Source: a virus (lineage: Duplodnaviria > Heunggongvirae > Uroviricota > Caudoviricetes). Taken from it: a stretch of 51,816 nucleotides of DNA. The translations under genes and the position numbers were made by a program. Of the stretch, positions 5,297-47,931 are shown one piece after another (positions within the stretch are counted from its first letter, which is position 1; each line of letters opens with the position of its first letter). The stretch is taken from IMG/VR virus record IMGVR_UViG_2627854066_000007; one strand, given 5' to 3'. The notes beneath the pieces were generated by a model that saw nothing but the letters and a program-made list of their open reading frames with translations, searched no databases and was not told the DNA's origin.

Positions 5297-7768
5297 TTAA
5301 GAATCAGCCTGACTCGGGATCAGTTTTTGCCAGATAACTGAAACGTATTTTGCCTGGTAACGGGCGTCATCAAGTGCATTATGGCGCTCACCTTCGAATG
5401 GAATAGCCGTTCTGGCATCGAAGTCTATGGCTTTCCCCAGCTCAACGATTGTGCGTACATCGCGATCGTTGTAGTAACGCCACGGGCAGGGGATCCCCTG
5501 CCGTTCGTATGAACGGCGCAAAATCGTGTTGTCGAAGTTGGCTCCATTTCCCCAAACCTGAACAAAAAATTCACTGGAGTTTTCGTCGATAAATTCCCGC
5601 AATTGTAACAGTGCATCATCTAACGGGATTTCATCGGTCATAATGGCAGATTGCGCTTCGCGTGATTGCTTAAGCCACCATTTAATGGTGTCCCGATCAA
5701 TGACTCCGCCAGCAGTTTCCAGATCGATAGTCTTACTAAATTCCGGTCCCATATCTCCGGTTTGCGGATCGAAAAATATTGCACCTATTGAGATGATCGG
5801 GGCATCAGGATTTTTTCCCATGGTTTCAAGGTCGATCATTAGATGGTCACACGTCCTGCTGGTGGATGTGATTTCGTGATGACCGTTCACCTTAATTGAG
5901 TGATCTGCCGTCTCGCCAGTTTCATTATCGCTATTGTGATGCTGATTGCCGCCAGTGTTCTCCTTGTGTGGATGTTCAGCGCCTTCCATTTCCTCCGGAT
6001 CATCTTCCTGAACTTCAACCTGATACTCTTCATCGAATGTTTCTTGGTATGTTGCGTCGCCCATCACCGCGCCACAATCAGGGCAGTTGCCGCCGCCGGT
6101 CTGACCGCAGGCGGTGCAGACTTTTTCCACTTCCTGTTGCGCCACTGGTTCAGGCTGTTTCGTTTCTGGCTCGTTTTGTAACGCATTTGTGCTGTTTTGT
6201 TCCGCTTTTTGGTAGTTCCGTTCCGATTCATGCTGGTTCTGGTTCACAGAATCGCGGGTCTGGATCCCCTTAACCCATTTCGGATCATTCGGGTCACTAA
6301 TCCCTTCAACAAATTCACCACGTGATGCAGCAAGCAACTTATCGGCGTCAGGCTGGCTGATATTGGCTGCCTGCATAATTTTGTTTACTTCGTCAGCGGT
6401 AACTTTTATCGGCTCTGGTTGTTCTGAATCTTCAGCGGTATCTACATTTTGCGGTAAGCCCGTGTATGTGCCATTTTTTCGGGCAAAATATTCTTCTTTT
6501 GTGATTTCAGTGGCGCCAGCAGCCAGTGCCTTATCCAGACCAGAAAGTTTGTTTGCGCGACCGTATTTTTCTCCGTCCTTATCTGCGAAGAGGAAATAGA
6601 ACGGCCCCTCACGCTCTACAGATGGTTCAGCTTCCGGCGCGGTTTCATTTTTTGGGATATCAGATACCTCAGTTTCCACTGCATCAGTTTGTGTTTCTGA
6701 TGACTGGAGAACATCAACAGTGCCCAGGTCTGTTTCTTCATTCTCAAACACGCCCTTTGTCGTCAGGTATTCGCAGATATATTTGTTCAGTGCTATGGGA
6801 TCTTTGTGAATGTCGATCGGACGCTCACGGACAAGGCCAAAAATAGTCTGGCGGTCGTAGCGAAGGGCATCAGGCTGTTTGCGCATTGATGCCGAGATAC
6901 GCTTCCAGTCTTCGCGGTCGTTGTCGATAACTTCTTTTTTTGCCCAGCGATGGATGCTGCCGTCAATGTTTCCGGCATCCACATCACCAGGCCAGAGAGC
7001 GTAGGCCAGTTCGTCATCCAGTGTTTTCCATGTCTGCTTGTATTCGCGATGAATGGCAGCAATGACCGGGCTGATTTTTCCTGTTGAATTTTCAGTGTAC
7101 TGTTGATTGGCTCTGGCGCGGGCGAGATCAACAACAGACGTGTATTTTCCGGTTTCCTTGCGTTCACCTTCGCGACGTTTTTTCCAGATGCGCATCTCTG
7201 CCTGAATTTCGGGCCATTTAGCACCAGGAATACATTTATGCTTAACCCACCCAATGGCGTGCAACTTAAGCTCCGGATACATGGCGTTAACTTCTGGCAT
7301 TTTCATCAACGCTTCAACGATATGTCCGTCGAATGTTGCCATGTCTTCCTGCAACAATTCCTGTGCGCTAATAACCATATCAACGGTGATGTTTTCACAT
7401 GTGTCGAACTTAACCATGACAGCGTTCTGTACTTCAGGGGCCAGCTTGTCAAAAGTGACGTTCATCGGATCGGATTCAGTCTCAACCGGGACAAAAGAAG
7501 CAGACTCCTCATCCCAGCGGTTTTCCTGCATATATTCAGCATCCCATGAATCGAGGGCAGGGCGGGGTATGCCAGGTTTATCCTCGCAGACAATAAATTT
7601 ATAAGCGCAGTCCTGAGCAGCCGGATAATGTTCCAGGAACTGCCAGTGAAATTTTGCTCGAGCACGGCGTTCGTCGCCAGCTTCAATGGCTGTGGCTACA
7701 GCCACAGCGCCTTCTTCCCTTGTTGCCAGTTCGTCAGGAATAGCGGCGCAAATAAAGACTTTACTCAT
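5297..7768 (-). CDS. Phage exonuclease with C-terminal DEDDh-type 3'-5' exonuclease domain
   Basis: 823-aa ORF; C-terminal ~200 aa carry DLET, NGANFD and HNALDDA motifs consistent with the DnaQ-like DEDDh fold; a long acidic low-complexity linker precedes the domain. Confidence 0.75.
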   Translation of the reverse strand: MSKVFICAAIPDELATREEGAVAVATAIEAGDERRARAKFHWQFLEHYPAAQDCAYKFIVCEDKPGIPRPALDSWDAEYMQENRWDEESASFVPVETESDPMNVTFDKLAPEVQNAVMVKFDTCENITVDMVISAQELLQEDMATFDGHIVEALMKMPEVNAMYPELKLHAIGWVKHKCIPGAKWPEIQAEMRIWKKRREGERKETGKYTSVVDLARARANQQYTENSTGKISPVIAAIHREYKQTWKTLDDELAYALWPGDVDAGNIDGSIHRWAKKEVIDNDREDWKRISASMRKQPDALRYDRQTIFGLVRERPIDIHKDPIALNKYICEYLTTKGVFENEETDLGTVDVLQSSETQTDAVETEVSDIPKNETAPEAEPSVEREGPFYFLFADKDGEKYGRANKLSGLDKALAAGATEITKEEYFARKNGTYTGLPQNVDTAEDSEQPEPIKVTADEVNKIMQAANISQPDADKLLAASRGEFVEGISDPNDPKWVKGIQTRDSVNQNQHESERNYQKAEQNSTNALQNEPETKQPEPVAQQEVEKVCTACGQTGGGNCPDCGAVMGDATYQETFDEEYQVEVQEDDPEEMEGAEHPHKENTGGNQHHNSDNETGETADHSIKVNGHHEITSTSRTCDHLMIDLETMGKNPDAPIISIGAIFFDPQTGDMGPEFSKTIDLETAGGVIDRDTIKWWLKQSREAQSAIMTDEIPLDDALLQLREFIDENSSEFFVQVWGNGANFDNTILRRSYERQGIPCPWRYYNDRDVRTIVELGKAIDFDARTAIPFEGERHNALDDARYQAKYVSVIWQKLIPSQADS

Positions 7769-9607: not shown

Positions 9608-10015
9608 TTATTTTATTGATTTATTTTTACGCGCTTTAAGCATTTCTTCGAAGAGTTTGTTGAAGTTTTCTACTCTTGCGCGCATTTCAGACAGCAAGGC
9701 TTCCTGCTCGGAAGATGGAAGAGCATCGAATAATTCGATCAATTCTTTGTGGTTGGGAGTTAGCTCTGTTTCCACATGAAGTTCTTGTGCAGGCACTGGT
9801 GCCTTGTCTTCGTCACCAAACATTAGCCATGTAGGTGAGCACTTCAGAGCATCCGCTAAAGCAAACAATCGTTTTCCGACTGGCTGGGTTTCGTCTCTTT
9901 CCCATTGTGAAATTGTGACGTGAGCAACTCCAGCGAGGCGCGCAGCTTCTCGTTGTGTTAAGCGTAATTCTTTTCGTCGCGCCAGAACTCGCTGGCCTAG
10001 GGTTCTTGTATCCAT
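9608..10015 (-). CDS. dicA: HTH-XRE repressor DicA (CI-like immunity repressor)
   Basis: 135-aa ORF with N-terminal helix-turn-helix (LTQREAARLAGVAHVTISQWERDE), divergent from the Cro-like dicC. Confidence 0.9.
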   Translation of the reverse strand: MDTRTLGQRVLARRKELRLTQREAARLAGVAHVTISQWERDETQPVGKRLFALADALKCSPTWLMFGDEDKAPVPAQELHVETELTPNHKELIELFDALPSSEQEALLSEMRARVENFNKLFEEMLKARKNKSIK

Positions 10016-10092
10016 AGTTAGGTAATTCTAATTTTTCTTGACTTAGGTATCCCGCGCACAATAATGTTAGAAAAGTCTAACAAGAGGGGGCT
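10016..10092. promoter_or_regulatory. Divergent dicA/dicC promoter-operator region
   Basis: 77-bp intergenic region between divergent repressor genes, containing TTAGGTAATTCTAA and GTTAGAAAAGTCTAAC inverted repeats. Confidence 0.5.
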
Positions 10093-10323
10093 TTGATGCT
10101 TAAAGTTGACGCAATTACTTTTTTTGGCAGCAAAACAAAGCTTGCCAATGCCGCAGGAGTGAGACTGGCAAGTGTTGCTGCTTGGGGGATACTGGTTCCT
10201 GAAGGTCGCGCGATGCGTCTACAGGAGGCATCTGGCGGGGAGCTTCAGTATGATCCCAAAGTTTATGACGAATATCGTAAGACGAAGCGGGCGGGGCGGT
10301 TGAACAATGAAAATCACTCCTGA
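10093..10323 (+). CDS. dicC: Cro-like regulator DicC
   Basis: 76-aa ORF transcribed divergently from dicA, matching DicC in size and position. Confidence 0.85.
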   Translation: MMLKVDAITFFGSKTKLANAAGVRLASVAAWGILVPEGRAMRLQEASGGELQYDPKVYDEYRKTKRAGRLNNENHS

Positions 10324-10828
10324 ACAGGCTCGTGAGGCTCTGGATGCCTGGATATGTCGACCAGGAATGACACAGGAGCAGGCGACGATATTAATCACTG
10401 AAGCATTCTGGGCTTTGAAAGAGCGCCCGAACATCGATGTTCAGCGTGTCACATATGAAGGTGGCGCGGTTGATCAGCGAGCGCTTAGCGTTAATCGAGT
10501 GAAGATATTCGAACGCTGGAAGGCTATCGACACCAGGGATAAGCGTGAAAAGTTCACAGCGCTAGTGCCTGCAATTATGGAGGCTATCCGGATTAGTGAT
10601 TTCAGGTTGTATCGTGAGATCAGTGATGGAAAAAGTATTACGTACATGATCGCCGGGTTAAATAAAGAATATGGCGATGTGGTGGAATCCGGACTGCTTT
10701 TTGCAGATCCTGCCGTTGTAGATCGTGAAACTGACGAACTTATAGAAAAAGCAATTGCTTTCAAGCTTGCGTATCGACAGCAATACCAACAAAAAGCTGG
10801 ATGGAATTATGAGTCTTCTTTTTGCTGA
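10307..10828 (+). CDS. Hypothetical phage early protein (173 aa)
   Basis: ORF directly downstream of dicC with good codon usage, overlapping the next gene; no family recognised from sequence. Confidence 0.6.
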   Translation: MKITPEQAREALDAWICRPGMTQEQATILITEAFWALKERPNIDVQRVTYEGGAVDQRALSVNRVKIFERWKAIDTRDKREKFTALVPAIMEAIRISDFRLYREISDGKSITYMIAGLNKEYGDVVESGLLFADPAVVDRETDELIEKAIAFKLAYRQQYQQKAGWNYESSFC

Positions 10829-11774
10829 ACGCCCACTGGTTATAAACACGCAGCTGGCAATGAAAATCGGCTTAAACGAAGCCATTGTTTTGCAACAACT
10901 GCACTACTGGTTGAGAGATACCAACTCCGGTATGGAATGTGATGGTGTTCGCTGGATTTATAACACAACGGAACAATGGCTGGAACAGTTCCCATTCTGG
11001 TCAGAGTCAACGTTAAAGCGCGCGTTTGCAAGTCTGAAAACGCTGGGGCTTTTGCGTTGTGAAAAGCTCAATAAATCAAAGCGCGATATGACCAATTTCT
11101 ACACGATCAACTATGGGAGCGAGCTTTTAGATGGTGGCAAATTGAACGAATCCATCGGTTCAAAATGCGCCGCTCCATCAGGTCAAAATGACACGATGGA
11201 AGAGGTCAAAATGAAACGCTCCATTGGTTCAAAACGACCCAATGTCATCGGGTCAAAATGGCCTGATGATCTTACAGAGAATACAACAGAGATTACTACA
11301 GAGAATAAAAACACTTTTCGTCCGGAAGCTTCGCAACCGGACCCGCAGACGACTGAACAGGATTTTTTAACCCGGAACCCCGACGCGGTTGTGTTTAGTG
11401 TGAAAAAACGCCAGTGGGGTAGCAGGGAGGATCTGGCGTGTGCGCAGTGGATTTGGGGGCGGATCGTGAACCTTTACGAACAGGCTGCCAGCGACGATGG
11501 AGAGATCATGCGACCAAAAGAGCCTAACTGGACAGCCTGGGCCAATGACGTGCGCACAATGCGGATGCTGGATGGCAGAAGCCACAGACAAATTTGCGAA
11601 ATGTTTGGTCGGGTACAGCGGGATCCATTCTGGGTAAAAAACATCATGAGCCCGTCAAAACTCCGCGAAAAATGGGACGAACTGGTCATCCGCCTGGGAC
11701 GTTCACCTGTACAGCGTTGTGTGAATCATATTTCTGAACCGGATACAGAAATTCCGCCTGGTTTCAGGGGATAA
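10809..11774 (+). CDS. Phage replication initiator (lambda O-like) containing origin iterons
   Basis: 321-aa ORF from MSLLFAERPLV (ATG overlaps upstream gene); internal tandem repeats of GGTTCAAAATG-type sequence followed by an AT-rich stretch, the arrangement seen for ori-lambda inside gene O. Confidence 0.7.
   Translation: MSLLFAERPLVINTQLAMKIGLNEAIVLQQLHYWLRDTNSGMECDGVRWIYNTTEQWLEQFPFWSESTLKRAFASLKTLGLLRCEKLNKSKRDMTNFYTINYGSELLDGGKLNESIGSKCAAPSGQNDTMEEVKMKRSIGSKRPNVIGSKWPDDLTENTTEITTENKNTFRPEASQPDPQTTEQDFLTRNPDAVVFSVKKRQWGSREDLACAQWIWGRIVNLYEQAASDDGEIMRPKEPNWTAWANDVRTMRMLDGRSHRQICEMFGRVQRDPFWVKNIMSPSKLREKWDELVIRLGRSPVQRCVNHISEPDTEIPPGFRG
11150..11265. repeat. Iteron-like direct repeats (putative phage replication origin)
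   Basis: Five copies of GGTTCAAAATG / GGTCAAAATGA / GGTTCAAAACG / GGGTCAAAATGG spaced at ~20-25 bp, encoding repeated IGSK peptide units, followed by AT-rich sequence at 11275-11330. Confidence 0.6.
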
Positions 11775-11814
11775 GTGTTGATTTCAGGTCATGAGATAAT
11801 TTTAAGGGGGACTT

Positions 11815-12216
11815 GTGGCAAAAGTTTTTACACAAGAAGAGCGGGAAAAAATTAAAGGGCAGGTTGTTGAACTCGTACGCCGGAGTGGGCGTGAGACGTT
11901 ACGGCAACTGGAAGTCAAGACAGGTGCGACAAGATATCTGATGAGCGTTCTCGCAAGAGAGCTGGTTGCCAGCGGCGATGTATACAACTCTGGTTACGGG
12001 TTATTCCCGTCTGAACAGGCGCGTAAGGACTGGCAAAATGCCCGTAAAAAGCTCTCAAGGGCAAAGCTGAAGAAACCATCTGCGGTTGATCCGGACCTTA
12101 TCTGGTCATTACCTGACGGAGAAATACGTCGCTACGACAGGCGTCAGAACATAATCTGCCGCGAGTGCCGGAAGAGTGAAGTTATGCAGCGCATACTGGC
12201 ATTTTATCAGGGATAA
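11815..12216 (+). CDS. Hypothetical phage protein (133 aa, GTG start)
   Basis: ORF downstream of the replication gene, basic, with a CRECRK motif; no family recognised. Confidence 0.5.
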   Translation: MAKVFTQEEREKIKGQVVELVRRSGRETLRQLEVKTGATRYLMSVLARELVASGDVYNSGYGLFPSEQARKDWQNARKKLSRAKLKKPSAVDPDLIWSLPDGEIRRYDRRQNIICRECRKSEVMQRILAFYQG

Positions 12217-12749
12217 TGTTAGATATTTTAGACGTTACTAGATTAAAAAGCATTAGTTCAGGAGTGAATTGACATTCTCATTTTTCATGGCACAGGGTAG
12301 ATCTGGCGTGGTTGTCCGCTTTGTGCCAACAGCGGACGTTACTAACGAAACTGTGAGTTAAAAACGGGAGCTGGTCACCTCCATCCCGCGAAATGGAATT
12401 CAAAAATGCCCTCATGTACGGTACTTCTAGTCTGATGTGAGCATTTTCGTGGATTTTTTCGAGCCACTCCAACGAATGATTACATTCAGTTTCGGGCACT
12501 AAAACGTCATAAATCCGCAAGTTGAGGAGTAGCGATCAGCCAATTGGTTAAAAAACAGCTTTAATTCCCTTTTTCAAGCAGGCTCCTTGTCGCACGTCTG
12601 GTGCATCCAATTCATTTCAGTTACCCTGATGCCATACTGGCACGGACTAGCTCTCTTAATTGGCGCTGGTTTGTTAACCTTGTCCGCTGTCGGGTCTTTG
12701 TAAGTTGTAATTCCTAAACTAGCATAATTTTATTATAAGGCCTCTTACT

Positions 12750-13775
12750 ATGCACATTTTATCTGTTTCAAAAAAGGAAGTTGGAAGAGCTGGGGATAGA
12801 TTAGTTTCTCAGTTTGGTACAGGTGAAAAATATAAAGAGGAAGATGTACAAATTCTTCATGAGTGGAGGATGTTGCATTTATATCCTTTAAGTAAAATAC
12901 AATTTTATATGGAAAGAGAGGCTATTTCCTTAAACAAAAATGCGTTACTATCCTCTAGAATTAAGAGGATGCCTTCCATTGTTACTAAGCTTTCTAGATT
13001 TCCTGATATGAAGTTAAATAAGATGCAGGATCTTGGTGGGTGCCGGGCTATTTTAAATAATCTGGATCAAGTGTATGATTTAGTTAATAAAATAAAATCA
13101 TCTAAATTCTCACATGAACTAGTTAGAATGGATGATTACATGATAGACGTGAAAGATTCTGGTTATAGAAGCTTTCATATGGTCTATTCATTCCAAAATA
13201 AAAAATTTCCATCTTTAAATGGGTTGCGCATTGAAATGCAAATAAGAACAGCTATTCAACATAGCTGGGCTACAGCAGTTGAAATGGTTGGTTTGTTTCG
13301 AAAGGAATCATTGAAATCTGGTTTTGGTGATGCAAGATGGCTTAGGTTTTTTGAATTGGTATCAGAGCTTTTTTATAAACTTGAGTATGAAAAAGAACCA
13401 TCTGGGAGTTATATAAAAATATCAGAAGAATTAAGTTATTTATCCGTCGAGTTGAATGTTTTCGATATATTAGCTGCTTACAATGCCGTAGTTAGCCATA
13501 TTGAGGGTAGCAAAAAATATGATAAAGGACTTTGCATAATTGTTGTTGATACCATAAAGCGGAATATAAATATAAAGAGCTTCGAAAATCACAATCATGC
13601 GAAGGCGGCAGAAGCTTATGTCGAGTCTGAAAAATACTGCGCGGAAAATAAAGGCTGTGAAGTGGCTATGGTTTCTGTTAGTTCAATTAGTGAATTAAAA
13701 AATGCATATCCTGCTTACTTTTTAGATACGAAAACTTTTTTAAATTATCTCAGTAGGTATGTTTTTATAAAATAA
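12750..13775 (+). CDS. RelA/SpoT-like nucleotidyltransferase (small alarmone synthetase-like; candidate toxSAS/CapRel-type)
   Basis: 341-aa ORF carrying RSH synthetase motifs in order: R70-x-K72-x3-S76-x3-K80, D94-LGGCR99, G138-YRSFH143, E162-MQIRTAIQHSWA174; gene is strongly AT-rich versus flanks; ~120-aa C-terminal extension beyond the catalytic core. Confidence 0.8.
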   Translation: MHILSVSKKEVGRAGDRLVSQFGTGEKYKEEDVQILHEWRMLHLYPLSKIQFYMEREAISLNKNALLSSRIKRMPSIVTKLSRFPDMKLNKMQDLGGCRAILNNLDQVYDLVNKIKSSKFSHELVRMDDYMIDVKDSGYRSFHMVYSFQNKKFPSLNGLRIEMQIRTAIQHSWATAVEMVGLFRKESLKSGFGDARWLRFFELVSELFYKLEYEKEPSGSYIKISEELSYLSVELNVFDILAAYNAVVSHIEGSKKYDKGLCIIVVDTIKRNINIKSFENHNHAKAAEAYVESEKYCAENKGCEVAMVSVSSISELKNAYPAYFLDTKTFLNYLSRYVFIK

Positions 13776-38756: not shown

Positions 38757-39104
38757 TTACAACATAGTCAGGGACGTAAGCAGTCTTTTAGGCTGCCGCC
38801 AGTCGATACCTTCCAGCAGCATCGCCAGCTGTGCCGGTGTGAGGAACACTTTGCCATCCCGGGCTGACGGCCAGGCGAAGCGGCCGCGCTCCAGCCGTTT
38901 GGTCAGCAGACACAGTCCATCGCCGGTAGACCAGAGGAGCTTTACCTGACTGCCATTACGCCCACGGAAGATAAAAACGTGACCTGACATCGGATCGTCT
39001 TTCAGCGTCGTCTGCACCTTTGCCGCCAGGCCGTTGAAGCCGTTTCTCATATCGGTGATGCCAGCGACCAGCCAGATCTTTGTCCCTGATGGTAATGGGA
39101 TCAA
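38757..39104 (-). CDS. tnpB: IS66-family TnpB (copy 2)
   Basis: 115-aa ORF, near-identical to 2715-3062. Confidence 0.85.
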   Translation of the reverse strand: MIPLPSGTKIWLVAGITDMRNGFNGLAAKVQTTLKDDPMSGHVFIFRGRNGSQVKLLWSTGDGLCLLTKRLERGRFAWPSARDGKVFLTPAQLAMLLEGIDWRQPKRLLTSLTML

Positions 39105-44964: not shown

Positions 44965-47931
44965 GTGAATATGGCAGTAAAGATTTCAGGTGTACTGAAA
45001 GACGGCACAGGAAAACCGGTACAGAACTGCACAATCCAGCTGAAAGCAAAACGTAACAGCACCACGGTGGTGGTGAACACGCTGGCATCTGAAAATCCGG
45101 ATGAAGCCGGGCGTTACAGTATGGACGTTGAGTACGGTCAGTACAGCGTTATTCTGTTGGTGGAGGGATTCCCGCCGTCACATGCCGGGACCATCACCGT
45201 GTATGAAGATTCTCAACCCGGTACGCTGAATGATTTTCTCGGTGCCATGACGGAGGATGATGCCCGTCCGGAGGCACTGCGCCGTTTTGAGCTGATGGTG
45301 GAAGAGGTGGCGCGTAACGCGTCCGCAGTGGCACAGAACACGGCAGCCGCAAAGAAGTCAGCCAGCGATGCCGGCACATCTGCCCGTGAGGCGGCAACCC
45401 ATGCGACTGATGCTGCAGACTCAGCACGCGCAGCCAGCACGTCAGCCGGACAGGCCGCGTCGTCGGCTCAGTCAGCGTCTTCCAGCGCAGGAACGGCATC
45501 AGCAAAGGCCACTGAAGCGGAAAAAAGTGCTGCCGCTGCAGAGTCCTCAAAAAGCGCGGCAGCTACCAGTGCCGGTGCCGCGAAAACGTCTGAAACGAAT
45601 GCTTCAGCGTCACAACAATCAGCCGCCACTTCTGCATCCACCGCGACCACGAAAGCGTCAGAAGCAGCCACTTCAGCACGGGATGCGTCGGCCTCAAAAG
45701 AGGCAGCGAAATCATCAGAAACGAACGCAGCCTCGAGCGCCAGTAGTGCCGCTTCCTCGGCAACGGCGGCAGCAAATTCTGCGAAGGTGGCAAAAACGTC
45801 CGAGACGAACGCCAGGTCTTCTGAAACGGCAGCGGGACAGAGCGCCTCAGCTGCGGCAGGCTCAAAAACAGCGGCTGCATTATCTGCCAGTGCCGCGTCA
45901 ACAAGTGCCGGGCAGGCCTCAGCCAGTGCCACCGCCGCCGGAAAATCGGCAGAAAGTGCTGCATCGTCTGCTTCAACAGCCACAACGAAGGCTGGCGAAG
46001 CCACTGAACAGGCCAGCGCAGCAGCGAGTTCTGCTTCCGCAGCGAAGACATCCGAAACGAACGCGAAAGCGTCGGAAACCAGCGCAGAATCCTCAAAAAC
46101 GGCTGCCGCATCGTCAGCCAGTTCGGCGGCGTCATCGGCATCATCTGCGTCTGCTTCAAAAGATGAGGCGACCAGACAGGCGTCAGCAGCAAAGGGCAGC
46201 GCCACGACGGCATCCACGAAGGCGACAGAGGCAGCTGGCAGTGCGACGGCGGCAGCTCAGAGCAAAAGTACGGCGGAATCCGCGGCAACGCGCGCCGAGA
46301 CAGCGGCAAAACGGGCAGAGGATATTGCATCCGCCGTGGCGCTTGAGGATGCGAGCACGACGAAAAAGGGGATAGTCCAGCTAAGCAGCGCGACCAACAG
46401 CACTTCCGAGTCACAGGCGGCAACGCCAAAAGCCGTTAAGGCCGCGTATGAGCTGGCTAACGGGAAATACACCGCACAGGATGCAACGACAGCACAGAAA
46501 GGGATAGTTCAGCTTAGCAACGCGACCAACAGCACATCTGAAATGCTGGCGGCAACGCCAAAGTCGGTAAAGGCAGCCTATGACCTTGCTAACGGGAAAT
46601 ATACTGCTCAGGACGCTACGACAGCACAAAAAGGAATTGTCCAGCTCAGTAGTGCAACCAACAGCGCATCTGAAACGCTTGCCGCGACACCGAAAGCAGT
46701 GAAAGCAGCTAATGATAATGCGAATGGTCGGGTACCTTCTGCCCGTAAGGTGAATGGTAAGGCGCTTTCAGCGGATATAACACTGACGCCGAAAGATATT
46801 GGTACGCTTAACTCAACAACAATGTCATTCAGCGGTGGTGCTGGTTGGTTCAAATTAGCAACGGTAACCATGCCACAGGCGAGTTCTGTTGTTTCAATTA
46901 CGTTGATTGGTGGCGCGGGATTTAACGTGGGGTCACCTCAACAGGCAGGTATATCTGAACTTGTTTTGCGTGCAGGTAATGGTAATCCGAAGGGGATTAC
47001 TGGTGCTTTATGGCAGCGCACATCGACAGGGTTTACAAATTTTGCCTGGGTCAATACATCTGGTGATACTTACGATATTTACGTTGCAATCGGAAATTAT
47101 GCGACTGGTGTAAATATTCAATGGGATTATACCAGTAATGCCAGCGTGACGATTCATACGTCACCAGCATATTCTGCTAATAAGCCGGAAGGGTTAACGG
47201 ACGGTACAGTTTATTCACTCTATACGCCATCAGAGCAGTTTTATCCGCCTGGCGCACCAATCCCGTGGCCATCAGATACCGTTCCGTCTGGCTATGCCCT
47301 GATGCAGGGGCAGGCTTTTGACAAATCTGCATACCCGAAACTTGCAGCGGCTTATCCGTCAGGCGTGATCCCTGATATGCGTGGCTGGACGATTAAGGGC
47401 AAACCTGCCAGTGGTCGGGCCGTATTGTCTCAGGAACAGGACGGCATTAAATCGCATACCCACAGCGCCAGCGCATCCAGTACGGATTTGGGGACGAAAA
47501 CCACATCGTCGTTTGATTACGGCACTAAATCCACGAATAACACTGGTGCGCATACCCATAGTTTAAGTGGCAGCACGAATGCGGCTGGTAATCACAGCCA
47601 TAGAGATGGCCGTCGATTTAACCCCAGTGTTTTTAAAGATACTTATCAATATGGTTATACAAGCTCAGGTCAAAATACCTGGGGTGTACAAGGCTCAGTA
47701 GGTATGTCTACGGGGTGGTTAGCGAATACCAGTACAGATGGTAATCATAGCCACTCACTGTCCGGCACAGCAGCATCTGCAGGTGCACACGCGCATACTG
47801 TCGGTATTGGTGCTCATACGCACTCCGTTGCGATTGGTTCACATGGACACACCATCACCGTTAACGCTGCTGGTAACGCGGAAAACACCGTCAAAAACAT
47901 CGCATTTAACTATATTGTGAGGCTTGCATAA
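44965..47931 (+). CDS. Side tail fiber protein (Stf-like)
   Basis: 988-aa ORF with a long Ala/Ser/Thr-rich low-complexity region (KTSETNA repeats), three ~42-aa fibre repeats ([37 protein letters not shown]) and a His-rich C-terminus (HTHS repeats). Confidence 0.85.

What the first reader, a model, noticed from the sequence alone, without database searches (positions are those of the whole stretch)
11150..11330. Iteron array embedded in the replication initiator gene
Within the O-like gene there are at least five direct repeats of a GGTTCAAAATG-type 11-mer spaced ~20-25 bp apart, translating into repeated IGSK peptide units, followed by an AT-rich stretch. This mirrors ori-lambda (iterons plus AT-rich unwinding region inside gene O) and marks the likely prophage origin. 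No lambda P-like or DnaC-like helicase loader is recognisable downstream; only a 133-aa unknown protein follows.
Basis: partly seen in the sequence, partly recalled or inferred. Interest (0 to 1): 0.4.

Follow-up and report, generated by a model that had tools for sequence, protein, structure and literature searches.

The report
Prophage replication origin inside initiator gene
The repeats are real and are almost certainly the replication origin of this E. coli prophage, laid out like the classic lambda origin inside the gene of the protein that binds it; that is an ordinary arrangement, but this version has no helicase-loader gene, and its initiator ends in a 13-residue tail copied from the host restart protein DnaT.

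Summary
Observation confirmed. Window 11151-11270 holds five copies of a 23-bp unit (spacing 23, 23, 23, 24). A sixth, degenerate copy lies upstream. The core G[GT]TCAAAA[TC]G occurs nowhere else in the 51.8 kb. Each unit is a semi-palindrome around an A-tract. The units are read in three different reading frames, so the repeat is a DNA feature, not a protein feature. A 69% A+T stretch with three 12-mers (ACAGAGAATAC-type) follows, then a 23-bp G+C-rich palindrome.

Among 66 homologous genes, third-codon-position diversity falls from about 0.25 in the flanking domains to 0.03-0.06 across this block. In 53 non-redundant relatives, 37 carry such arrays at 21-24-bp spacing at the same place, against 0 in control regions. 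The repeat sequence changes with the initiator's N-terminal domain.

The initiator (10809-11774) is a chimera. It has a winged-helix N-domain (RepA_N/DnaD-like fold), a disordered linker that encodes the origin, a lambda-O C-terminal domain, and a DnaT-like tail (SEPDTEIPPGFRG).

No lambda-P-like or DnaC-like gene exists in the window, nor in the related isolated phage HannyBb. Relatives with this tail never have a P gene, and some have a DnaC-like gene. Relatives with aromatic W..W..L tails always have a P gene.

Verdict: a lambda/pSK41-type origin, a new member of a known kind, with an untested helicase-recruitment twist.

The parts
10809..11774 (+). Replication initiator gene (321 aa): N-terminal winged-helix domain, ori-encoding linker, lambda-O-type C-domain, DnaT-like tail
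   Evidence: ORF. PHROG 391 at E 1.9e-92. No Pfam hit. 4296 homologues. 12,364 cluster representatives.
10809..11132 (+). Coding region of the N-terminal winged-helix domain (aa 1-108), the presumed iteron-binding domain
   Evidence: AF2 pLDDT 80-90 with a wHTH topology. Best PDB matches are RepA NTD 4pql and the Rep-DNA complex 5kbj. This domain recombines with different C-domains but always keeps the adjacent ori.
11128..11154 (.). Degenerate iteron 0 (centre 11141; GGTGGCAAATTGAAC)
   Evidence: 64% match in family D1. Dyad symmetry 7/13. It is a good copy (GAGGTCAAAGTGA) in mEp460_4F5 and Klebsiella phage Kp4882-3.
11151..11177 (.). Iteron 1 (centre 11164), read as S-I-G-S-K
11174..11200 (.). 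Iteron 2 (centre 11187; TCCATCAGGTCAAAATGACACGATGGA, 10/13 symmetric), read as G-Q-N in another frame
11197..11223 (.). Iteron 3 (centre 11210), read as V-K-M in the third frame
11220..11246 (.). Iteron 4 (centre 11233; core GGTTCAAAACG)
11244..11270 (.). Iteron 5 (centre 11257; 9/13 symmetric)
11268..11316 (.). A+T-rich, purine-skewed stretch with three 12-mers (TACAGAGAATAC / AACAGAGATTAC / TACAGAGAATAA at 11273-11310); candidate DNA-unwinding and helicase-entry element
   Evidence: 69% A+T, the A+T-richest 49 nt of the gene. Period-12 array. Lowest pi3 of the gene, 0.027. ACAGAG at 12-nt spacing in 23/53 relatives against 0 in controls, down to 34% N-domain identity. Copy number varies: 5 copies in L074.
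11320..11342 (.). G+C-rich palindrome GTCCGGAAGCTTCGCAACCGGAC on the far side of the A+T-rich stretch
   Evidence: Sequence. Lies inside the low-pi3 block that ends near codon 185.
11346..11702 (+). Coding region of the lambda-O-type C-terminal domain (aa 180-298)
11733..11771 (+). Coding region of the C-terminal tail SEPDTEIPPGFRG, nearly identical to the last residues of E. coli DnaT
   Evidence: NCBIfam DnaT positions 160-179. PDB DnaT chains 2ru8, 6aep and 9zbt align over their last 21 residues only. Tail type correlates with loader type.
11815..12216 (+). DUF977 / Ren-like gene, sitting where lambda has ren; the lambda-P position between it and the initiator is empty (40-nt gap)
   Evidence: PF06163 at E 3.8e-29. 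PHROG 142. A 20-aa C-terminal motif shared with lambda Ren. Relatives have a P gene or a DnaC-like gene inserted exactly here.

Best explanation
This is the origin of replication of a Qin-site lambdoid prophage of E. coli. It is embedded in the linker-coding middle of its own initiator gene.

Proposed mechanism (all steps inferred):
1. After derepression, the cro / cII-like / initiator operon is transcribed and the 321-aa initiator is made.
2. Dimers of its N-terminal winged-helix domain bind the five (perhaps six) 23-bp semi-palindromic iterons. Two helical turns separate neighbouring sites, so the dimers sit on one face of the DNA. They bend it and form an O-some-like nucleoprotein complex.
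3. The strain is relieved in the adjacent 49-bp A+T-rich 12-mer region, which opens.
4. The lambda-O-type C-terminal domain and its flexible DnaT-like tail then bring in the replicative helicase. The phage encodes neither a lambda-P-type nor a DnaC-type loader, so the helicase must come as host DnaB-DnaC. The most likely contact is the IPPGFRG tail.

Shown here:
- the anatomy of the element;
- DNA-level constraint on it;
- conservation of the layout, and change of repeat sequence with the initiator's N-domain, across the family;
- the domain architecture of the initiator;
- the absence of a loader gene;
- the association between tail type and loader type.

Inferred, not shown: binding, unwinding, helicase recruitment, and which protein the tail contacts.
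For: Repeat statistics and uniqueness
- Spacing, uniqueness in the window and the lag-23 maximum are given.

The repeat is a DNA feature
- Identical cores are read in three frames.
- Each unit has dyad symmetry.
- In 66 unique homologous genes, third-codon-position diversity (pi3) is 0.236 in the N-domain and 0.280 in the C-domain, but 0.064 in the iterons and 0.027 in the 12-mers. Diversity at positions 1 and 2 is 0.04-0.07 there, so all codon positions are equally constrained. Cores are near-invariant in the alignment.

Family-wide architecture
- 37 of 53 non-redundant relatives carry 3 or more copies chained at 21-24 bp (or 43-48 bp) directly after the N-domain. The controls give 0 of 53 and 0 of 50.
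- Unit consensus sequences differ by clade, for example GGTCAAAATGACC, GGGACAATTTGTCCC, TGCTCAAAATGAGCA and GACCCATTTTGGGTC. Their similarity tracks N-domain identity, from 0.52 at below 40% identity to 0.89 at above 85%.
- The N-domain and ori travel together with unrelated C-domains.

Initiator identity
- PHROG 391; lambda O C-domain homology.
- Winged-helix N-domain, disordered residues 110-177, helical C-domain.
- RepA_N-like fold matches.

The module works without a loader
- The complete genome of the isolated phage HannyBb has the same module, with the ori 215/218 identical, and no P-like or DnaC-like ORF.
- The same arrangement is seen in the approximately 9.4-kb region examined around the mEp460_ev081 replication genes.

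Tail and loader
- In non-redundant clusters of initiator C-terminal sequences, GFRG-type tails have 0 of 11 P-like and 3 of 11 DnaC-like genes downstream; the DnaC-like genes start 6-7 nt after the initiator stop.
- W..W..L-type tails and the related aromatic lambda-type tails have 9 of 9 P-family genes.
- An otherwise isogenic backbone (L205) with tail DWNSADGWEDVL carries a P gene between the initiator and DUF977.
- In E. coli, dnaT lies directly upstream of dnaC (PMC5778457).
Against: - No experiment: nothing here shows binding, unwinding or ori activity.
- The trough in synonymous diversity could be inflated by recent recombinational spread of the ori block among mosaic phages. The loci are not phylogenetically independent.
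- The A+T-rich stretch is only moderately A+T-rich (69%, top 5% of 49-nt windows in the window).
- The structural match of the N-domain to RepA_N is weak (Foldseek E 0.028). Pfam RepA_N and Phage_rep_O give no hit.
- The partner of the DnaT tail is unknown in the literature I could read. The 2026 preprimosome structures assign DnaT-CTD docking to PriA and suggest the DnaT NTD, not the tail, for DnaB/DnaC recruitment (PMC13377028). In vitro, removing DnaT 154-179 only lowered ssDNA affinity and cooperativity (PMC4132743). The tail might therefore bind PriA or ssDNA rather than DnaC.
Confidence: 0.85

Rival explanations
1. The repeats are a protein-level feature, a low-complexity repetitive linker (IGSK / TENTTEITTEN), with no DNA function. 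The DNA periodicity is a by-product.
For: The region encodes a predicted disordered linker. The TExTTExTT peptide is widely conserved in protein alignments. The 12-mer period is a multiple of 3.
Against: The 23-bp period is not a multiple of 3, and the same core is read as IGSK, GQN and VKM. Units are palindromic. Third positions are as constrained as first and second positions. Thr and Glu in the 12-mers are always ACA-GAG rather than synonymous alternatives, down to 34% N-domain identity. In pSK41 the equivalent peptide is dispensable while the DNA is the ori (PMC5703833).
Confidence: 0.03
2. The array binds the initiator or another phage regulator, but serves regulation (autorepression, handcuffing or copy control, or exclusion of related phages) rather than initiation. 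The true origin lies elsewhere.
For: Iterons in plasmids also mediate handcuffing and autoregulation. Cloned lambda ori iterons inhibit homologous phages (abstract of PMC3349717). I did not search the window for alternative origins.
Against: The full iterons / A+T-rich / palindrome layout matches experimentally defined origins in lambda (feature table) and pSK41 (PMC5703833). The A+T-rich 12-mer block is the most constrained part, which pure titration sites would not need. Only two other short tandem arrays and one 132-bp repeat exist in the window.
Confidence: 0.07
3. The module is a decayed remnant. The prophage has lost its helicase loader by deletion, so the origin is no longer functional in this strain.
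For: 18 of 81 close relatives carry a DnaC-like gene exactly between the initiator and the next gene. The Qin site in E. coli K-12 holds a cryptic prophage (my own knowledge). A natural 93-bp deletion variant with one iteron exists (P0018).
Against: The complete genome of the isolated phage HannyBb has the same loader-less arrangement, and the examined replication region of mEp460_ev081 shows it too. The window's gene is full-length with all iterons intact, and the ori is 215/218 identical to HannyBb. The loader-less form is the majority form (59 of 81).
Confidence: 0.05

Closest known systems
ori-lambda inside gene O of phage lambda (O-some; O-P-DnaB pathway)
   Same: - The origin lies inside the initiator gene, between the parts coding for the DNA-binding N-domain and the C-domain.
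- Four to five dyad-symmetric iterons at about 20-24-bp spacing. Lambda starts are at 39034, 39054, 39078 and 39101.
- The central TCAAAA(C/T)GA of the iterons is even shared.
- An A-rich, A+T-rich stretch lies to the right.
- The C-terminal domain is homologous (34% identity, E 1e-27).
- Gene order is cII-like, O-like, (P), ren-like.
   Different: - The N-terminal domain is not detectably the lambda O N-domain: no PF04492 hit and no BLASTP match.
- There is no P gene.
- The C-terminal tail is IPPGFRG instead of lambda's TDWIYGVDL.
- The A+T-rich region is built from conserved ACAGAGAnTAC 12-mers.
- Five or six iterons instead of four.
RepA_N-family theta replicons (S. aureus pSK41 / pTZ2162 Rep; Vibrio PLE RepA)
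   Same: - Near-identical architecture. pSK41 Rep is 319 aa: NTD 1-120 binds four Rep boxes located centrally in rep, residues 121-199 are a dispensable linker encoded by the ori, and CTD 200-319 is host-specific (PMC5703833). Here the protein is 321 aa with domains 1-108, 110-177 and 180-298.
- The best structural matches of the model are RepA NTD 4pql and the Rep-DNA complex 5kbj.
[quoted passage not shown]
   Different: - No Pfam RepA_N hit, even at E = 10. Fold similarity is weak (E 0.028).
- The CTD is lambda-O type, not the staphylococcal DnaG-binding type.
- This is a phage of a Gram-negative host.
E. coli primosomal protein DnaT
   Same: The last 13 residues are SEPDTEIPPGFRG here and SEPDSQIPPGFRG in DnaT. 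In both cases the gene can sit immediately upstream of a dnaC-type gene (PMC5778457).
DnaD / phage replisome-organiser proteins (B. subtilis DnaD, SPP1 G38P/G39P, S. aureus phage 'DnaD-like' initiators)
   Same: - The N-domain aligns at 40-46% identity to initiators of S. aureus and Bacillus phages annotated as DnaD-like.
- PHROG hits to 'DnaD-like helicase loader' families.

Membership tests
Lambda-type origin (ori-lambda layout) | Several directly repeated initiator sites at about two helical turns | tested here: met
   Five units at spacing 23/23/23/24 bp, plus one degenerate unit. Lambda spacing is 20/24/23.
Lambda-type origin (ori-lambda layout) | Each iteron internally dyad-symmetric (binding site for an initiator dimer) | tested here: met
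   7-10 of 13 arm positions symmetric in every unit, against a background of 3.3 +/- 1.6.
Lambda-type origin (ori-lambda layout) | A+T-rich, strand-asymmetric region directly next to the last iteron | tested here: met
   11268-11316 is 69% A+T and 63% purine on the top strand, and is the A+T maximum of the gene.
Lambda-type origin (ori-lambda layout) | Located within the initiator gene, in the interdomain linker | tested here: met
   Codons 107-178 correspond to the AF2 segment 110-177 with pLDDT below 50.
Lambda-type origin (ori-lambda layout) | Initiator binds the iterons and the fragment supports replication | not testable with these tools
   Needs EMSA or footprinting and an ori-cloning assay.
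Lambda-type origin (ori-lambda layout) | Cognate P-type helicase loader encoded next to the initiator | tested here: not met
   No P-like or DnaC-like ORF anywhere in the window. Relatives with other tails do have a P gene.
Lambda O protein family | N-terminal Phage_rep_O domain (Pfam PF04492) | tested here: not met
   No hit even at E = 10. BLASTP to lambda O matches only the C-terminal half.
Lambda O protein family | Lambda O C-terminal (P-interacting) domain | tested here: met
   Residues 147-294 align to lambda O 135-270 at 34% identity, E 1e-27.
PHROG 391 'replication initiation O-like' | Full-length profile match | tested here: met
   E 1.9e-92, residues 17-321 against profile positions 11-298 of 298.
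RepA_N replicons | RepA_N domain (Pfam PF06970) | tested here: not met
   No Pfam hit.
RepA_N replicons | NTD with RepA/DnaD-type winged-helix fold | tested here: inconclusive
   The top Foldseek hit is 4pql (RepA NTD) at E 0.028, prob 1.0, target-normalised TM-score 0.55, and 5kbj ranks 5th, but generic wHTH regulators score similarly.
RepA_N replicons | Semi-palindromic iterons converging on an A-tract, located centrally in the rep gene | tested here: met
   The definition is taken from PMC7145576 and PMC5703833.
DnaT (primosomal protein I) | Full-length DnaT homology (NTD, linker, three-helix CTD) | tested here: not met

The most novel reading that the evidence does not exclude
The C-terminal tails of lambda-O-type initiators are interchangeable short motifs that decide how the helicase is recruited. 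Aromatic tails such as W..W..L (and lambda's own TDWIYGVDL) pair with a phage P protein. The SEPDxxIPxGFRG tail is the same motif that ends host DnaT, and it plugs the initiator directly into the DnaC route, using host DnaB-DnaC or a phage DnaC-like protein. That would let phages such as this one drop the loader gene altogether. If true, it would also assign a function to the uncharacterised C-terminal tail of DnaT and point to the missing DnaT-to-DnaB/DnaC contact in replication restart. A second open point is that the ACAGAGAnTAC 12-mers stay conserved while the iterons diverge. They may be a specific unwinding or helicase-loading element read by a conserved partner.
Probability: 0.35. Interest if true: 0.7.

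Novelty: new member of a known kind. Interest (0 to 1): 0.42.

Why it matters
The origin itself is textbook in kind. It gives a confident annotation (ori plus initiator) for a gene that RefSeq calls 'hypothetical protein' in most of the listed identical copies and that other records mislabel 'Primosomal protein I'. At least part of the 1.4-kb initiator-plus-DUF977 stretch matches DNA in 4,216 of 5,426 complete E. coli genomes, and 1,589 genomes hold at least 80% of it.

The more useful outcome is comparative. One prophage backbone exists in three natural versions:
- initiator with a W..W..L tail plus a P gene;
- initiator with a DnaT-like tail plus a DnaC-like gene;
- initiator with a DnaT-like tail and no loader.

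This is a ready-made genetic system for asking how a lambda-type initiator recruits DnaB, and what the conserved tail of DnaT does. Reviews still list that step of replication restart as unknown (PMC5778457, PMC13377028).

Tried and rejected
- Pfam on the initiator, whole and in halves, up to E = 10: nothing meaningful. NCBIfam: only the DnaT tail. PADLOC: nothing for the initiator or DUF977.
- Rfam at E up to 1 over 10000-12800: no RNA family. The strong ssDNA fold z-score (-3.6) is explained by the palindromic units, so I did not pursue an RNA reading.
- Sequence search of the PDB with the protein and with a profile: only the DnaT tail and marginal wHTH or DnaD-NTD hits.
- Literature on the DnaT tail: no paper contains 'PPGFRG'. 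Reviews and the 2026 preprimosome papers do not assign it a partner. PMC4129139 gave nothing.
- The term 'initiator-solo' (which I recalled from Weigel and Seitz 2006) is not in the searchable library. The Stx-phage 'Eru' paper does not discuss DnaT, DnaC or origins.
- Host-factor sites in 11050-11420: no IHF consensus, and one DnaA-box consensus at 11399-11407 on the minus strand, outside the constrained block. I did not take it as part of the origin.
- A lag-21 periodic signal near 6130 in the exonuclease gene did not hold up with the repeat finder or TRF.
It was redone without it.
Full report
**Context.** The window is a lambdoid prophage at the E. coli Qin site, flanked by ynfA and rspAB. 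It is 100% identical over the query to many avian and human E. coli chromosomes. The early-right operon reads:
- cI-like repressor, 9608-10015, minus strand;
- P22-Cro-like, 10093-10323;
- YdaT/cII-like, 10307-10828;
- a 321-aa ORF, 10809-11774;
- a DUF977 gene, 11815-12216.

The finding lies in the middle of the 321-aa ORF.

**The observation.**
- The repeat finder gives five in-register copies with start-to-start spacing 23, 23, 23, 24 bp, and three 12-mers at 11273-11310.
- TRF reports both arrays. They are two of only five tandem arrays in 51.8 kb.
- The core G[GT]TCAAAA[TC]G occurs five times in the whole window on both strands, all of them here. The lag-23 self-match (59 of 95) is the maximum over lags 8-40 for the entire window, z = 7.5.
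- Each unit is a semi-palindrome. The consensus is TcCATcgGgTCAAAATGaccCGaTgnA. Between 7 and 10 of 13 arm positions are symmetric in every unit, including a degenerate 'unit 0' at 11128-11154. The background is 3.3 +/- 1.6.
- Because 23 is not a multiple of 3, the same DNA core is translated as IGSK (units 1, 4, 5), GQN (unit 2) and VKM (unit 3).
- Downstream come a 49-bp stretch of 69% A+T, which is purine-rich on the top strand and the A+T maximum of the gene, and a 23-bp G+C-rich palindrome at 11320-11342.

**DNA-level selection.** From IMG/VR and phage records I collected 66 unique homologous genes (65 from other records, 69-100% protein identity, plus the window's own) and built a codon alignment.
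- Third-position nucleotide diversity is 0.236 in the N-domain and 0.280 in the C-domain. It is 0.064 across the iterons and 0.027 across the 12-mers.
- First and second positions are 0.04-0.07 there, so all three codon positions are equally constrained.
- The trough spans codons ~103-185, about 11115-11365.
- Cores are almost invariant, and changes fall in the spacers.
- Natural length variants exist. One is a 93-bp in-frame deletion from unit 1 to unit 5 (P0018). Another is a 24-bp expansion to five 12-mers (L074).

**Family-wide comparison.** The protein has 4,296 close homologues and 12,364 cluster representatives, and the family is highly modular. Using three diverged members as queries, I obtained 203 loci, of which 53 are non-redundant for the region downstream of the N-domain.
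- In 37 of 53 there are 3 or more copies of a 10-mer chained at 21-24 bp (or 43-48 bp) immediately after the N-domain. In upstream and downstream control regions of the same loci there are none, 0 of 53 and 0 of 50.
- The units are all of one type: short inverted arms around a CA-AAA-TG, CAATTTG or CAACTTG centre. The arms differ by clade, and unit similarity rises with N-domain identity. Mean best-shift identity is 0.52 below 40% N-domain identity and 0.89 above 85%. Spearman rho is 0.33, though the pairs are not independent.
- The N-domain and ori stay together when the C-domain is replaced. One example is Klebsiella phage Kp4882-3; others are.
- The ACAGAG 12-mers recur at 12-nt spacing in 23 of 53 loci and 0 controls, down to 34% N-domain identity. 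Thr and Glu are always coded ACA-GAG.

**The initiator.**
- Pfam gives nothing. PHROG 391 'replication initiation O-like' matches at E 1.9e-92.
- BLASTP to lambda O aligns residues 147-294 with lambda O 135-270 at 34% identity, E 1e-27. The N-domains do not align.
- AlphaFold2 predicts a winged-helix N-domain (1-108), a disordered segment 110-177 that coincides with the ori-coding block, a helical C-domain (180-298) and a flexible tail.
- Foldseek's best PDB matches are the RepA N-terminal domain of staphylococcal RepA_N plasmids (4pql) and a Rep-DNA complex (5kbj). The E-values are weak and generic wHTH regulators score close behind.
- The architecture equals that of pSK41 Rep: NTD 1-120 binds Rep boxes located centrally in rep, residues 121-199 are a dispensable ori-encoded linker, and the CTD is host-specific (PMC5703833). 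RepA_N iterons are described as semi-palindromic repeats converging on a poly-A tract (PMC7145576), as seen here.
- Lambda's own iterons (ATCCCTCAAAACGAGGGA, start spacing 20/24/23) share the central TCAAAAyGA.

**The missing loader.**
- No ORF in the window resembles a lambda P or a DnaC/IstB protein. The only large Walker-A ORF is the terminase.
- The same holds for the complete genome of the isolated phage HannyBb, whose ori block is 215/218 identical. The approximately 9.4-kb region examined around the mEp460_ev081 replication genes also shows no loader gene. The loader-less module is therefore viable.
- The last 13 residues, SEPDTEIPPGFRG, are nearly identical to the C-terminus of E. coli DnaT (SEPDSQIPPGFRG). 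Nothing else of DnaT matches, so 'Primosomal protein I' in some records is a mis-annotation.
- Among loci whose initiator has the lambda-O C-domain, tail type predicts the next gene. GFRG-type tails have 0 of 81 P-like genes and 18 of 81 DnaC-like genes (Pfam IstB_IS21; the gene starts 6-7 nt after the initiator stop); of the other 63, 59 have no candidate at all and 4 have only an unrelated Walker-A ORF further downstream. All 17 W..EAWENTL tails have a P-family gene (PF06992), as do 13 of the 19 tails that my pattern left as 'other', most of which are related aromatic tails. That makes 30 P-containing loci in all.
- After collapsing to non-redundant clusters of initiator C-terminal sequences, the counts are 0 of 11 P-like and 3 of 11 DnaC-like for GFRG tails, against 9 of 9 P-like for aromatic tails, including lambda's TDWIYGVDL.
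- A 72%-identical initiator in the same prophage backbone, but with tail DWNSADGWEDVL, is followed by a P gene and then DUF977. A 69%-identical one with IPEGFRG has no loader.
- In E. coli, dnaT sits directly upstream of dnaC, and the DnaT-to-DnaB/DnaC contact is still undefined (PMC5778457, PMC13377028).
- My inference is that the tail is the helicase-recruitment motif for the DnaC route. I put this at roughly 35-45%. Alternatives are binding to PriA or to ssDNA; removing DnaT 154-179 lowers ssDNA affinity and cooperativity in vitro (PMC4132743).

**Rivals considered.**
- A purely protein-level repeat is excluded by the frame argument, the palindromy and the codon-position pattern.
- An RNA element has no support.
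- A regulatory or handcuffing-only role, or a decayed module, cannot be excluded without experiments. Both are disfavoured by the complete lambda/pSK41-like layout and by the viable phages that carry the same module.

**Verdict.** The finding is correct. This is a lambda/pSK41-type iteron origin inside the initiator gene, a new, experimentally uncharacterised member of a well-known kind. The added value is threefold:
- the chimeric nature of the initiator (RepA_N/DnaD-like N-domain, lambda-O C-domain, DnaT tail);
- the conserved 12-mer element;
- the categorical link between tail type and loader type, which is a testable lead on helicase recruitment.

Noticed in passing
window 12750-13775 (+): A 341-aa RelA/SpoT-domain protein matches the PADLOC candidate defence family PDC-S33 at E 5e-119. 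It sits in a variable slot between the DUF977 gene and hokD. Relatives carry other cargo in that slot: a SMEK-domain protein in L049, a 449-aa reverse-strand gene in mEp460_ev081, and 495-518-aa Walker-A proteins in L009 and L052. It looks like a defence or moron hot-spot.
   Followed up: partly
window 11273-11310; L074, L141, L168, L175 and others: The 12-mer (T/A)ACAGAGA(A/T)TAC is repeated 2-5 times at 12-nt spacing. It is conserved at the nucleotide level in 23 of 53 non-redundant relatives, down to 34% N-domain identity, even though the iterons next to it differ completely. No known host-factor consensus fits it. Its role (specific unwinding element, or ssDNA site for a conserved partner) is unexplained.
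   Followed up: partly
window 11733-11771; L205 3001-4697; L074, L058 and others: The C-terminal tail type of lambda-O-type initiators predicts the next gene. GFRG (DnaT-like) tails never have a P gene and sometimes have a DnaC-like gene. Aromatic W..W..L tails and lambda's TDWIYGVDL always have a P-family gene.
   Followed up: yes
P0018 (290 aa) and L074 (IMG/VR 2617271340_000013): Natural ori length variants exist. One is a 93-bp in-frame deletion that fuses iteron 1 to iteron 5 and leaves a single unit. The other is a 24-bp expansion giving five 12-mers. The first is probably an ori-defective prophage.
   Followed up: no
window 10809-10828; P0001, P0003, P0004: The YdaT/cII-like gene overlaps the initiator start by 20 nt. 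Some genomes have a 448-aa ORF that fuses the YdaT-like protein to the initiator and is annotated 'toxin YdaT family protein'. This is probably a frameshift or a gene-calling artefact.
   Followed up: no
window 11399-11407 (-): A single DnaA-box consensus (TTTTTCACA) lies about 60 bp beyond the constrained ori block. There are five such matches in the whole window. Its conservation in relatives was not checked.
   Followed up: no
window 11815-12216 vs lambda ren: The last 20 residues of DUF977 (NIICRECRKSEVMQRILAFY) resemble the C-terminus of lambda Ren (NLVFKECRQSAAMKRVLAVY), pairwise E 2e-6. This supports the PHROG label 'Ren-like' and the positional equivalence with lambda ren.
   Followed up: partly
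L082, L143, L096, L102, L108 (gene directly after the initiator): Many GFRG-tail initiators are followed by a 130-165-aa protein with an N-terminal wHTH and a PerC-like C-terminal segment (PF06069, E 2e-8 to 1e-4), instead of DUF977. It is not known whether this small protein takes part in replication.
   Followed up: no
window 46364-46676: A 132-bp tandem repeat, 2.4 copies at 80% identity, TRF score 395, lies in the late region. It was not examined.
   Followed up: no
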